Shown: positions 44,801 through 47,800 of the stretch, in pieces
Layout of the letters: every line of letters begins with the position of its first letter
How positions within the stretch are numbered: position 1 is the first letter of the stretch
Assembly (NCBI GenBank): GCA_965153285.1
Contig: OZ229111.1
Reading direction: 5' to 3' (one strand)
Length of the DNA stretch: 64,000 bases
Source: Podarcis tiliguerta
Lineage: Eukaryota
Position numbers: made by a program

Positions 44801-47800
44801 AGACTGTCTTGTAGTTCAAAACAAGAGAGATTCCCCCAGTGTTCCCCTCAAGCATTCATAAATCCCTCATGCAGCTGATTGGAACGGAGGGATGTATTCT
44901 GAACGAGTTAGTCTTCTTTTTTCTTCAGGGATTCCCAAGCACAAGGAGGAAAACACTGAAACCCCCAAATCTCATTTTCTCTCTCTCTGAGACTGCTGGG
45001 CATTCCATTCTAGTTCTCTATCCCTGACCTACACATCCGAAGCACAGAGAGCCCTATGTTTCAAAGGACCCCTTTCTTCTGGACAGCGCTATAAGGAAGA
45101 AGCAGCCACCTCACTCTGCAAAACTTGAGCAAGTCCTGCACCTGAGCTGTCTTGTCACTGCAGCTTCACAATGCCTTCCCTACAGATCCTTTGAAGAATT
45201 AAAACCAAATAACAGCTGCCTCCTTTCTCTTGACTAAGACCTTGGAACAAACCAGCAAGAGACCCCTCCGCCCCCCACCAAGGTGGTTGGCCTCATAGGC
45301 CACTTAATGCCAGCGGTTAGGATGTCATGAATTTTTAAAACTCCTTCAAGCGCAAATGGAAGGGGTTAGCACAGCTGGGAGATGGGGATTTCCAATGCTG
45401 CAAAGAGGTTTTTGAAGCAACGGCTTCCTTTCCTCTGGAGATCCTAGGCAAGGAAACATGTGCAGCTCCAGGACCACAGTGATGGGAGTGAAAGGAAGTG
45501 CAGTGGTGGTGATACTACAGGCGTGCCAAACCCCCCTCTCCCCACCCCCCGGGAGAAGTTAAGGAACTAGACTCACATTGCAGCGAGATTCTTCAGCTAA
45601 GGGAGACACGCCTGGGATTCAGCTGGCTGGAAATTGGGTTGCAGCACTTTGGAGGGCCAAGTCGAGACAGACAGATTTATATTTTAAATTACTTCACACA
45701 TATACATACAGAACATCCAACCGTACCGGAGGCGTAAAATTCGACCGCAATAGAAAGGCAACTGGGACACAGGGAGGCTGGGATGAACCCTAACAAAAAA
45801 GCAATGCATATGCCATTGGATGACACAGATTGTATTCAGGTTAACAATACACATCAAAAAGAAATTTCACGCGCATGGTCTCTGTGTGCCATGCATTCAC
45901 CCGTTGTCTCTAAGAACACATTTCCGAAAGTTGGACCTAGATATATCCTCAATGACAATATTAAAGCCCGGGGAAAGTGCGATCTCCTTGATCTTAAGCT
46001 TGCATCTGATTGCTACCACGCCAGCACCTCTGCAGCCAGACAGCACACAGGTGCTACCCTGGAACCGTTAACAACTCCTGTGACAACTGAGAAAGCAAAA
46101 CGGACGTGCCTTTCGGGAGGATGGGGGGAAAAGGGGGTGGAGGCGATTAAAGCCCTGACCTTTAGATCTGGGGATTCCAACCACGTGTGAAGCAGGTAGG
46201 TATAAAGAGGCGGACTTACCTGCTGGAGGTAGAGGAAGGCCGGGGGGCAAGGTAGAGAGTGTGGGAGCAAGGCTGAGTTGGAGACCAGGAGGCAGCCTGA
46301 GTTAGCCATCGAGCAGAGCATGTGTTGCCGGCAAGCCCAGGAGCGGCTATGCTGGCAGCTCCCTCTGCTCCCAGACCCTCTGCTTCTTCCCTTTACAGTA
46401 CTTGCTTTTTCTCCGTGGTTTTTCTTTTGGCAGCTCCCCCGTGCGGAGCTATTTAAGAGGGCTCCATTGGAGGAGCTGCATGCTGTGTCTCCAGCTCAAG
46501 CAGGGAAGGAGCAGCGTGCAGGCTGAGAGTCACTTGGTGCCATTAGACGAAGCTGCTGAATGAATGCATGGTCCGCAAAGGGTGTGTGTGTATGTGTGCG
46601 CGCATGGGGGGGGGGGGTGGAGAGAGAGAGAGAGAGAGCAGAGGAGGGGGGAGAGGGTTGAGAGGCGGGGGAGTCCCCTGTGCATTCAGACATCAAACAG
46701 CTCACTGCGAAACCAAGAAAAGCCGGAACAGCTGAGCCTGCACTTAACCCCTCACCTGCTGCAACTCTGCCTCTTGCCCTGTGATAAATAGGCCACCAAG
46801 CAGGCTCTGACACTTAACCGGGGTACCTGGCTCAGGCCCGCTGCCTAATCTTGCATCAGCCCAGAGAAAATACAGAGTTATCGTCAGCGGTTCCAGGGAC
46901 AATAATTTCAAGACCCACAACGAGGGAATTATGCTGCTGTGGCATCCGCACTTCCAAAATATGTCTCTCTCTGCTCCCTGCAACATTCCTGGGTATAGGG
47001 AGCGTCTCTGTAACACAGGGTACCCAGCAAAGAAACCCTGGGATAAAGCCTACAGTCTCTCTCTCCCCCCCACACATGCAGGCAAGACAGACCCAGTGTC
47101 CAAATACCAGAGGTAAGCGAGACCTAGATTCTCACACATATAGATGCCTGCACGCAAAGGCCTTATATGCCCTCTGCCCAGACATGGACTTGCACACCTA
47201 CAGGCACGCACACATTGTTGCATGCCAGGCCTGCACAGATGGAAGCCAGCTGACCTCTCCTGAAATATGAGCAGAATTTGGCAGGAGATGCATTTGCTGG
47301 ATTATTCCTGAGTGCTGGGTAGCTTGTCCCATAGGAGCGCAAATAGATCCCAGCTCACTGCACAGAGCCTGTTCCCAGCAGCTTTTGAAGGAACAGGAAG
47401 GCATTGCCTTCTACCTCCCCGGAACAAGGCCTGTGCTGTCTGGGATCTTCTCGTCAAAGGCATGGGTCCTTAGGGGCTGCGCTCATAGGCTGCTGTTTAG
47501 TTAGGTCAGAGTGTGGCAGTTGCTCCCCAATTCTTTGTGATTGGGTTTGCTTGTGAGCAGGCTCCAGGAATGCCAATATCTCCAGCCTTTACTCTAAGCA
47601 AAGTGGCTAAATGTTGCCCACACCCTCTGAAACCTGAAATGTAGTTGGCATATTCCCTATTCAATAGCTGGGTAGCTGTGGCGGAGAAAACAGGATGCAG
47701 CACTACACTATCCATTTGACTGCATGGGCCCCTCTCTTTTTTGCTGGGTTTTGAAACAAGGGGACCAAAAGAAGCTGCTAGTGATATGGAAGACGTTTCA

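What the first reader, a model, noticed from the sequence alone, without database searches (positions are those of the whole stretch)
46220..46321. Distant alternative first coding exon adds a 45-aa N-terminal extension to RBFOX3
Seen: a 34-codon ATG-initiated frame ends exactly at a perfect CAG|GTAAGT donor in phase 0, 44,188 nt upstream of the phase-0 acceptor at 2031, whose first 11 codons ([11 protein letters not shown]) are open ahead of the canonical MAQPY start. Known: RBFOX1 and RBFOX2 use alternative promoter exons spliced onto the homologous GNQ exon, while RBFOX3 is usually described as starting at MAQPY. Inference: the peptide loosely parallels the RBFOX1 muscle-type N-terminus (MLASQGVLL...PYLPGLIQ|GNQ), suggesting an ancestral paralogous exon retained in RBFOX3. 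Similar predicted isoforms may already be in annotation databases.
Basis: partly seen in the sequence, partly recalled or inferred. Interest (0 to 1): 0.7.

Follow-up and report, generated by a model that had tools for sequence, protein, structure and literature searches.

The report
Conserved upstream coding exon of RBFOX3
A short upstream exon in a lizard RBFOX3 (NeuN) gene would add 45 residues to the protein; gene models of many other vertebrates already carry the same exon, but its function has not been studied.

Summary
On the minus strand, an ATG at 46321 opens 34 codons that end at CAG|GTAAGT (exon end 46220). That is 44,188 nt upstream of the phase-0 acceptor at 2031, whose first 11 codons precede MAQPY.

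An ORF ending at a donor is not rare on its own: 13 of 197 loose GTRAG donors in the window follow such an ORF. The evidence is conservation. The peptide is 100% identical in named snake and lizard RBFOX3 models, 94% in birds, 86-88% in mammals and 64-82% in coelacanth, bichir, paddlefish and teleosts. In 21 of 25 fetched models it runs straight into the GNQ...MAQPY exon. It matches the neighbouring coding exon in conservation in 19 of 22 species, and its only indels are whole residues.

So this is the orthologue of an ancient alternative 5' coding exon, already present in RefSeq and Ensembl models. The functional papers I read still start RBFOX3 at MAQPY.

I take the window for a squamate contig, not human. 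Transcription, splicing and translation could not be tested here.

The parts
46220..46321 (-). Coding part of the upstream exon ('exon A'): ATG plus 33 codons, MLCSMANSGCLLVSNSALLPHSLPCPPAFLYLQQ, ending in phase 0
   Evidence: Over the 34 residues it is 100% identical to named RBFOX3 models of Crotalus tigris, Thamnophis elegans and Hemicordylus capensis. Alignment with 22 named species is.
46214..46219 (-). Splice donor GTAAGT after exon-final CAG
   Evidence: It is one of only 4 CAGGTAAGT sites in the window.
46322..46430 (-). Presumed 5' untranslated part of exon A. The start of transcription is inferred, not shown.
   Evidence: No ATG on this strand between 46466 and 46322. The frame is open but has no ATG.
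46450..46456 (-). TATA-like TTAAATA, about 130 nt upstream of the ATG
   Evidence: Read from the sequence only. This is motif recognition by eye; function not tested.
46466..46470 (-). CCAAT motif just upstream of the TATA-like box
   Evidence: Read from the sequence only; function not tested.
46496..46498 (-). First in-frame stop (TGA) upstream of the exon-A ATG
46273..46274 (-). AG inside exon A, after a pyrimidine-rich stretch. It sits where five bird RBFOX3 models splice upstream exons into the 3' half of the exon (...G|MLPHSLPCPPAFLYLQQ).
   Evidence: One search gives the AG positions; one search gives bird models P0104-P0108. Use in this species was not tested.
2032..46219 (-). Intron of 44,188 nt between exon A and the GNQ exon
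   Evidence: Coordinates. tblastn of other models' N-termini found no further convincing exon in it.
1777..2031 (-). 'GNQ exon' (exon B), 255 nt, phase 0 at both ends. It reads [11 protein letters not shown], then MAQPY... with the ATG at 1998..1996 in the context gcaATGg.
   Evidence: It is 96-98% identical to named squamate RBFOX3 models, and 100% identical to Tiliqua scincoides isoform X3 from MAQPY onward.

Best explanation
Window 46321..46220 (minus strand) is the coding part of an ancient alternative 5' exon of RBFOX3 (NeuN). The window is most likely a lizard contig. A transcript that starts a little upstream of this exon would be spliced from CAG|GTAAGT at 46220 to the acceptor at 2031. 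Its first AUG would be the one at 46321. Translation from it would give an RBFOX3 protein with 45 extra N-terminal residues: 34 from this exon and 11 from the normally untranslated head of the GNQ exon.

Shown here:
- the sequence anatomy;
- the orthology of the peptide across bony vertebrates;
- its direct junction to the GNQ exon in other species' models;
- its protein-like conservation.

Inferred:
- that the exon has its own promoter (a TATA-like box and a CCAAT motif lie upstream);
- that the junction is used in this species;
- that the weak-context AUG is translated rather than skipped in favour of the strong-context MAQPY AUG.

What the extension does is unknown. It is hydrophobic and Cys/Pro/Leu-rich, has no Lys or Arg, and is predicted disordered. 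My guess is a short linear motif affecting localisation, stability or partner binding, by analogy with the N-terminal extensions of RBFOX1 and RBFOX2 that carry a nuclear localisation signal.
For: Anatomy.

Orthology: a 40-residue window reference (the 34 codons plus 6 upstream) found 105 proteins, of which 84 carry a species name. Nearly all named ones are RBFOX3, from squamates, birds, turtles, placental and marsupial mammals, sturgeon and paddlefish, bichir and teleosts. Coelacanth, lungfish and newt models carry it too.

Junction: in 21 of 25 fetched named models the peptide runs straight into the GNQ/GTQ/SDQ...AMAQPY exon.

Coding-like constraint:
- The Met of the window's start codon is kept in 22 of 23 aligned rows and the second Met in 23 of 23.
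- The only indels are whole residues: +S in 3 of 3 mammals and +P in Echeneis.
- Identity to the window is at least as high as for the adjacent coding exon in 19 of 22 species.

Start codon: there is no ATG on this strand between 46466 and 46322, and an in-frame TGA lies at 46498.

Family precedent: Rbfox1 exons E1A, 2 and 3 add 92 N-terminal residues with a classic NLS, and Rbfox2 isoform 1A has a similar one (passages of PMC7214753).
Against: - No expression data could be consulted, so the junction, the transcription start and translation are untested for this species.
- Most supporting proteins are automatic gene models (XP-type RefSeq, Ensembl/TrEMBL). These can propagate an open frame by homology.
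- The exon-A AUG has a weak context (CAACACATGC: C at -3, C at +4). The MAQPY AUG has a strong one (gcaATGg), so leaky scanning could yield mainly the canonical protein.
- Passages of Dredge and Jensen 2011 and Kim et al. 2013 (which used 5' RACE in chick) treat MAQPY as the extreme N-terminus.
- The region is not a CpG island (GC 0.53, CpG observed/expected 0.29). The promoter motifs were recognised by eye only.
- Five bird models use only the 3' half of the exon as an internal exon, so 'first exon' need not be its only mode.
- No nucleotide sequences of other vertebrates were available, so dN/dS was not computed.
Confidence: 0.8

Rival explanations
1. The exon is real and spliced as described but acts mainly as a 5' untranslated leader. 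Ribosomes skip its weak AUGs and start at MAQPY. On this view the conservation reflects a DNA- or RNA-level regulatory element (promoter-proximal or 5'UTR) rather than a protein.
For: - Weak context at both exon-A AUGs against a strong context at the MAQPY AUG.
- Similarity to fish models continues a few residues upstream of the window's ATG (R-x-H before M; query coverage 93-98% in fish rows, alignment). This could reflect nucleotide-level conservation.
- The functional papers read describe only MAQPY-initiated protein.
Against: - Only whole-residue indels.
- Conservative replacements (V/L/I, L/M, Q/E, S/G/N).
- The Met is retained in 22 of 23 rows.
- Conservation is equal to or above the adjacent coding exon in 19 of 22 species.
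- Ray-finned fishes extend the same frame to an upstream Met in 8 of 8 aligned rows.
- The first ~139 residues of the extended protein contain no Lys or Arg (P0013). A tryptic mass-spectrometry search would therefore not see the extension, which weakens the negative evidence.
Confidence: 0.17
2. The frame and donor are a chance coincidence in intronic DNA, and no exon exists here.
For: ATG-initiated frames of at least 34 codons ending at a loose GTRAG donor occur 13 times among 197 such donors in this window.
Against: The same 34-residue peptide is found at the N-terminus of RBFOX3 models across bony vertebrates, at E down to 1e-12 in a search of 5.8 billion proteins. A phmmer search of 1.84 billion representatives gave 55 hits at E<=0.001, the top one being a spurious repetitive protein.
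Confidence: 0.01
3. In this species the exon serves mainly as an internal exon. Farther-upstream first exons would splice into the AG at 46274/46273, as in the bird models, so the ATG at 46321 is not in the mature mRNA.
For: - Five bird models (P0104-P0108) join various upstream sequences to ...G|MLPHSLPCPPAFLYLQQ|GNQ.
- The corresponding AG and a pyrimidine-rich stretch are kept in the window.
Against: - Six named squamate models fetched start at MLCSM with the full exon.
- The window lacks the internal Met that pigeon models use as a start: it has Leu where birds have Met.
- The 5' half of the exon is at least as conserved as the 3' half.
Confidence: 0.02

Closest known systems
Predicted N-terminally extended RBFOX3 isoforms in public annotation (for example Hemicordylus capensis isoform X7, Crotalus tigris X15, Thamnophis elegans X1, Ictidomys tridecemlineatus X5, Erpetoichthys calabaricus X1)
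   Same: Same 34-residue peptide (100% in the three squamates, 86-88% in mammals, about 79% in bichir), same direct junction to the GNQ...MAQPY exon, same gene.
   Different: - The window has Gly at the fourth residue of the GNQ exon, where the fetched models have Asp or Glu.
- Ray-finned fishes start 8 or more codons farther upstream (MRKTSRYH...), where the window has no ATG.
- These are automatic models.
Canonical RBFOX3/NeuN starting at MAQPY (Dredge and Jensen 2011, PMC3126832; Kim et al. 2013, PMC3575530)
   Same: Same gene and same GNQ exon. The anti-NeuN epitope lies in the first ~20 residues after MAQPY (passages). Those residues are present unchanged in the extended form.
   Different: The extended form would place 45 residues ahead of that epitope. 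Neither paper's passages mention such a form.
RBFOX1 isoforms from exon E1A (+ exons 2, 3) and RBFOX2 isoform 1A (Casanovas et al. 2020, PMC7214753)
   Same: An alternative promoter exon far upstream adds a coding N-terminal extension to a Fox-family protein that is usually described with one start (passages).
   Different: Those extensions are 92 residues, only 59% identical between mouse and human, and carry a classic basic NLS. The RBFOX3 exon is 34 residues, far more conserved, and has no basic residue in tetrapods.
RBFOX1 / RBFOX1L 'muscle-type' N-terminal exon (ML[PS]S..V.L.PYG...Q|G; Vicugna pacos RBFOX1 P0294, Vipera latastei RBFOX1-like P0338, five teleost rbfox1l models)
   Same: Same position (immediately before the G that opens the GNQ-type exon), similar length (29 against 34 residues), both begin ML, are hydrophobic and Pro-rich, and end in Q.
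   Different: No significant sequence similarity: hhalign probability below 1%, P 0.087-0.09; hmmsearch E 0.041-0.5 in a 22-segment search.

Membership tests
RBFOX3 exon-A type N-terminal extension (as in public RBFOX3 models) | Peptide homologous to MLCSMANSGCLL...CPPAFLYLQQ | tested here: met
   100% identity to three named squamate models. A profile built from 22 species plus the window recovers 6 further RBFOX3 models at E<=1.9e-21 among 108 named Fox-family proteins.
RBFOX3 exon-A type N-terminal extension (as in public RBFOX3 models) | Lies upstream of, on the same strand as, and in a phase compatible with the GNQ...MAQPY exon of RBFOX3 | tested here: met
   phase-0 donor at 46220 and phase-0 acceptor at 2031. 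Exon B is 96-100% identical to squamate RBFOX3.
RBFOX3 exon-A type N-terminal extension (as in public RBFOX3 models) | The junction exon A to GNQ exon is actually used in mRNA of this species | not testable with these tools
   No RNA-seq or transcript collection for vertebrates was available. Support is only by analogy: 21 of 25 fetched models of other species show the junction.
RBFOX3 exon-A type N-terminal extension (as in public RBFOX3 models) | Purifying selection on the reading frame (dN/dS < 1) | tested here: inconclusive
   Protein-level proxies only: whole-residue indels, Met kept in 22 of 23 rows, identity at least that of exon B in 19 of 22 species. No orthologous DNA was available for a codon test.
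Alternative-promoter first exon | Own transcription start with no upstream exon spliced in | not testable with these tools
   TATA-like TTAAATA at 46456..46450 and CCAAT at 46470..46466 were seen by eye. No ATG between 46466 and 46322. No CpG island. Bird models show an internal-exon mode for the 3' half.
   hhalign probability 0.4-0.7%, P 0.087-0.09. hmmsearch E 0.041 (squamate RBFOX1L) and 0.5 (Vicugna RBFOX1) among 22 pre-junction segments; these rank just below the true exon-A rows and the seahorse RBFOX1 model.
   In the protein models both exons end immediately before the Gly that opens the GNQ/GSP/GGP exon. The phase in the paralogues' DNA was not examined.
Fox-1 family protein (RRM_1 + Fox-1_C) | RRM and Fox-1 C-terminal domain | not tested
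   Those exons lie outside the window. Pfam finds both domains in the gecko model P0068 and nothing in exon A or exon B alone. Gene identity rests on exon B.

The most novel reading that the evidence does not exclude
Exon A encodes a translated N-terminal module that has been kept since before ray-finned and lobe-finned fishes split, and that defines a distinct, so far unstudied NeuN/RBFOX3 protein form driven by its own TATA-type promoter. The form would have escaped notice because the first ~139 residues lack Lys and Arg and are invisible to tryptic proteomics, and because cloning has started at MAQPY. The module would change localisation, stability or partner binding. It may also belong to an older, pre-duplication set of hydrophobic leader exons, since one seahorse RBFOX1 model ends ...FMYLQQ|GNQ and RBFOX1/RBFOX1L muscle-type leaders score just below significance.
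Probability: 0.3. Interest if true: 0.5.

Novelty: already known. Interest (0 to 1): 0.3.

Why it matters
NeuN/RBFOX3 is a very widely used marker of mature neurons and a splicing regulator. The functional papers I read define its N-terminus, and the anti-NeuN epitope, from MAQPY. A 45-residue extension that matches the neighbouring coding exon in conservation from teleosts to mammals suggests a second protein form that experiments have not addressed. If it is made, the epitope would be internal in that form, and standard tryptic proteomics would miss it. As a genome-scan result, however, it is ordinary: the exon is already carried by automatic gene models in dozens of species, and this window adds only one more orthologue.

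Tried and rejected
- I resent it as a 40-residue window reference that includes six codons upstream of the ATG.
- **Representative search.** The top hit is a repetitive protein with 17 matched stretches, which I judge spurious. The other rows are unnamed, so I did not fetch or use them.
- **Exon B search.** The 120 rows listed were all RBFOX3, so it gave no RBFOX1 for the paralogy test. I obtained RBFOX1, RBFOX2 and RBFOX1L models by querying the invariant part of the RRM of a gecko model.
- **'MMMYFW' alternative exon and other N-termini.** A regex and tblastn search for the MMMYFW exon and for other models' N-termini found nothing convincing in the window. The YFW|GT matches fall in an interspersed repeat.
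- **Structure prediction.** AlphaFold2 on the gecko model P0068 with a 12-row alignment gave mean pLDDT 35.9, with residues 1-50 all below 50. It says nothing about the extension.
- **Family and atlas searches.** Pfam has no family for exon A or exon B. The ESM Atlas gave nothing above 0.76.
- **Rfam.** Only one tRNA-like hit, at 51016..51074.
- **Literature.** The string MLCSMANSG is in 0 papers. Searches on Rbfox3 promoters, first exons and isoforms listed no paper whose title or abstract describes the extension. I read passages of only three papers, and their supplements are closed.
- **Cluster look-up.** I could not see whether curated (NP-type) records carry the extension.
- **Joined model.** I did not search or fold the window's own joined exon A + exon B model.
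- **Not available.** There was no vertebrate DNA or read collection, so I could not test dN/dS or nucleotide conservation of the ATG and donor, or count junction reads.
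Full report
**What is there**

The gene runs on the minus strand.
- Window 46321..46220 reads ATG followed by 33 codons: MLCSMANSGCLLVSNSALLPHSLPCPPAFLYLQQ. It ends with CAG, directly followed by GTAAGT.
- 44,188 nt downstream on that strand, a pyrimidine-rich tract and cag| place an acceptor so that the next exon begins at 2031.
- That exon reads [11 protein letters not shown], then [22 protein letters not shown]..., and ends ACCG|gtaagg at 1777. 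It is 255 nt, in phase 0 at both ends.

The window contains no N.

Exon A is 100% identical to named RBFOX3 models of a rattlesnake, a garter snake and a girdled lizard. Exon B is 100% identical from MAQPY onward to a Tiliqua scincoides model. The mammalian versions, including a named chimpanzee model, are 86-88% identical and carry an extra Ser. I therefore take the window for a squamate contig, not a human one.

I did not search or fold the window's joined exon A + exon B sequence. The join is argued from other species' public models.

**Is it more than chance?**

The pattern alone is weak evidence. Only 4 CAGGTAAGT sites exist in the window, and this is the only one preceded by an ATG-initiated frame of at least 34 codons in phase 0. 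With a loose donor (GTRAG), 13 of 197 sites are so preceded. The real evidence is comparative.

- **Breadth.** A 40-residue window reference (the exon plus six upstream codons, because the tool needs 40) found 105 proteins, of which 84 carry a species name. Nearly all named ones are RBFOX3. They come from squamates, birds, turtles, placental and marsupial mammals, sturgeon and paddlefish, bichir and many teleosts. Later fetches added coelacanth, lungfish and a newt.
- **Junction.** Of 25 named models fetched, 21 run from this peptide straight into the GNQ/GTQ/SDQ...AMAQPY exon. Two join it to a later exon, and two are short 'hypothetical proteins' that continue in unrelated sequence.
- **Alignment of 22 species plus the window.** The first Met is kept in 22 of 23 rows and the second in 23 of 23. 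The only length changes are whole residues: +S in 3 of 3 mammals and +P in Echeneis. Replacements are mostly conservative.
- **Rate.** Identity to the window is at least as high for exon A as for the undisputed coding exon B in 19 of 22 species.
- **Independent search.** A phmmer search of 1.84 billion representatives gave 55 hits at E<=0.001. The top one is a repetitive protein that I regard as spurious. The rest are unnamed and I did not use them.

**Surroundings**

- Upstream of the ATG the frame stays open for 58 codons to a TGA at 46498, with no in-frame ATG. No ATG in any frame lies on this strand between 46466 and 46322.
- A TTAAATA (46456..46450) and a CCAAT (46470..46466) lie just upstream. 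I recognised them by eye and cannot test them.
- The region is not a CpG island.
- If transcription starts some 25-30 nt below the TATA-like box, the exon-A AUG is the first AUG of the mRNA.
- Its context is weak (CAACACATGC), while the MAQPY AUG has G at -3 and +4. Leaky scanning to MAQPY is therefore a real possibility.
- All 8 aligned ray-finned fish models begin at least 8 codons farther upstream (MRKTSRYH-MLCSM...). The window has R-x-H before the Met but no ATG there.
- Five bird models join other upstream sequence to the 3' half of the exon (...G|MLPHSLPCPPAFLYLQQ|GNQ). The corresponding AG (46274/46273), behind a pyrimidine-rich stretch, is retained in the window. The exon may therefore also work as an internal exon.
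- A second short conserved leader, MMMYFW|GNQ, appears in Pogona, a sea turtle and gar models. I could not find it in this window.

**Most likely mechanism**

This is an alternative promoter or 5' exon of RBFOX3. Its transcript, spliced 46220 to 2031, opens the reading frame 45 codons ahead of MAQPY.

- Shown: the orthology, the junction in other species' models, and the protein-like conservation.
- Inferred: promoter use, splicing and translation in this animal.
- Main rival: the exon is a conserved untranslated leader and MAQPY remains the start. I give this about 0.17.

The extension has no Pfam family, no informative Atlas neighbour, and is modelled as disordered at very low confidence. 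Its function is open. By analogy with the N-terminal extensions of RBFOX1 (exons E1A, 2 and 3: 92 residues with a classic NLS) and RBFOX2 isoform 1A (passages of PMC7214753), I guess at a short motif affecting localisation, stability or binding. That guess is unsupported by any test here.

I obtained RBFOX1, RBFOX2 and RBFOX1L models by querying the invariant part of the RRM of a gecko model and read their N-termini. The 'muscle-type' leader is present in a Vicugna RBFOX1 model, squamate RBFOX1-like models and five teleost rbfox1l models.

- Profile against profile, exon A and this leader align with probability below 1% and P 0.087-0.09.
- In a search of only the 22 segments that precede a GNQ-type exon, the leader scores E 0.041 (squamate RBFOX1L) and 0.5 (Vicugna RBFOX1), just below the true exon-A rows.
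- The best non-RBFOX3 match is a different leader, from one seahorse RBFOX1 model...CAALTFMYLQQ|GNQ. It scores E 0.0029 in that small search and E 0.22 against the 108 whole named proteins kept from the 120 rows, after 12 unnamed rows were dropped.

**Known or new?**

The exon is already in public annotation as automatic RBFOX3 isoform models in many species. This makes it a known feature with one more orthologue.

In the literature held here:
- The string MLCSMANSG occurs in 0 papers.
- Four topic searches listed no paper whose title or abstract describes the extension.
- Passages of Dredge and Jensen 2011 place the anti-NeuN epitope at the 'extreme N-terminus', within the first ~21 residues from MAQPY, and mention in-frame stops in the 5'UTR they knew.
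- Passages of Kim et al. 2013 clone chick Rbfox3 from MAQPY after 5' RACE.
- I read passages only, and supplements are closed, so a mention elsewhere is not excluded.

One point follows directly from the sequences. The extended protein has no Lys or Arg in its first ~139 residues (P0013), so tryptic proteomics would not detect the extension.

**Verdict**

- Observation: confirmed.
- Main interpretation: supported by orthology, but not by any expression evidence for this species.
- Paralogy inference: unproven.
- Novelty: already known in annotation.
- Interest: modest.

Noticed in passing
not in window; models P0141 (Pogona vitticeps), P0165 (Natator depressus), P0189 (Lepisosteus oculatus): A second short leader, MMMYFW, is joined to the GNQ exon in a lizard, a sea turtle and a gar model. 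It looks like another conserved alternative 5' coding exon of RBFOX3. No match was found in this window.
   Followed up: partly
window 46273-46274 (minus strand); bird models P0104-P0108: Five bird RBFOX3 models splice unrelated upstream sequence into the middle of exon A (...G|MLPHSLPCPPAFLYLQQ). The matching AG and a pyrimidine-rich stretch are kept in the lizard window.
   Followed up: partly
window 46322-46345 (minus strand); fish models: All 8 aligned ray-finned fish models start at least 8 codons upstream of the tetrapod start (MRKTSRYH-MLCSM). The window keeps R-x-H before the Met but has no ATG there, so the start codon seems to differ between ray-finned fishes and the lobe-finned/tetrapod models.
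   Followed up: partly
model P0328 (Hippocampus comes RBFOX1 isoform X5): One seahorse RBFOX1 model has an N-terminus ending ...CAALTFMYLQQ|GNQ that resembles the end of RBFOX3 exon A (E 0.0029 among 22 pre-junction segments). It hints that an exon-A-like leader also exists in RBFOX1. This is a single automatic model.
   Followed up: partly
window about 22155-22364, 29511-29695, 30611-30831, 33647-33802, 51438-51600, 57438-57637: An interspersed repeat of roughly 180 bp occurs in six copies at 80-84% identity to the copy used as query. Five are on the minus strand and one on the plus strand.
   Followed up: partly
window 51016-51074 (minus strand) and 58955-59074 (plus strand): Rfam's only hit is a tRNA-like stretch (33.9 bits). 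The surrounding ~130 bases have a 77%-identical second copy, so it is probably the head of a tRNA-derived SINE rather than a tRNA gene.
   Followed up: partly
window 2020-2022 (minus strand): The fourth codon of the GNQ exon is GGC (Gly) in the window. The fetched RBFOX3 models have Asp or Glu there (GNQD/GNQE).
   Followed up: no
window 46600-46660 (minus strand): A (CT)n run followed by a run of C and a CA-rich stretch lies about 300 nt upstream of the exon-A ATG.
   Followed up: no
model P0140 (Acipenser sinensis, flagged UNVERIFIED_CONTAM by its source): This model contains the GNQ exon and the following exon twice in tandem, which explains its inflated score. It is probably an assembly or annotation artefact.
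   Followed up: no
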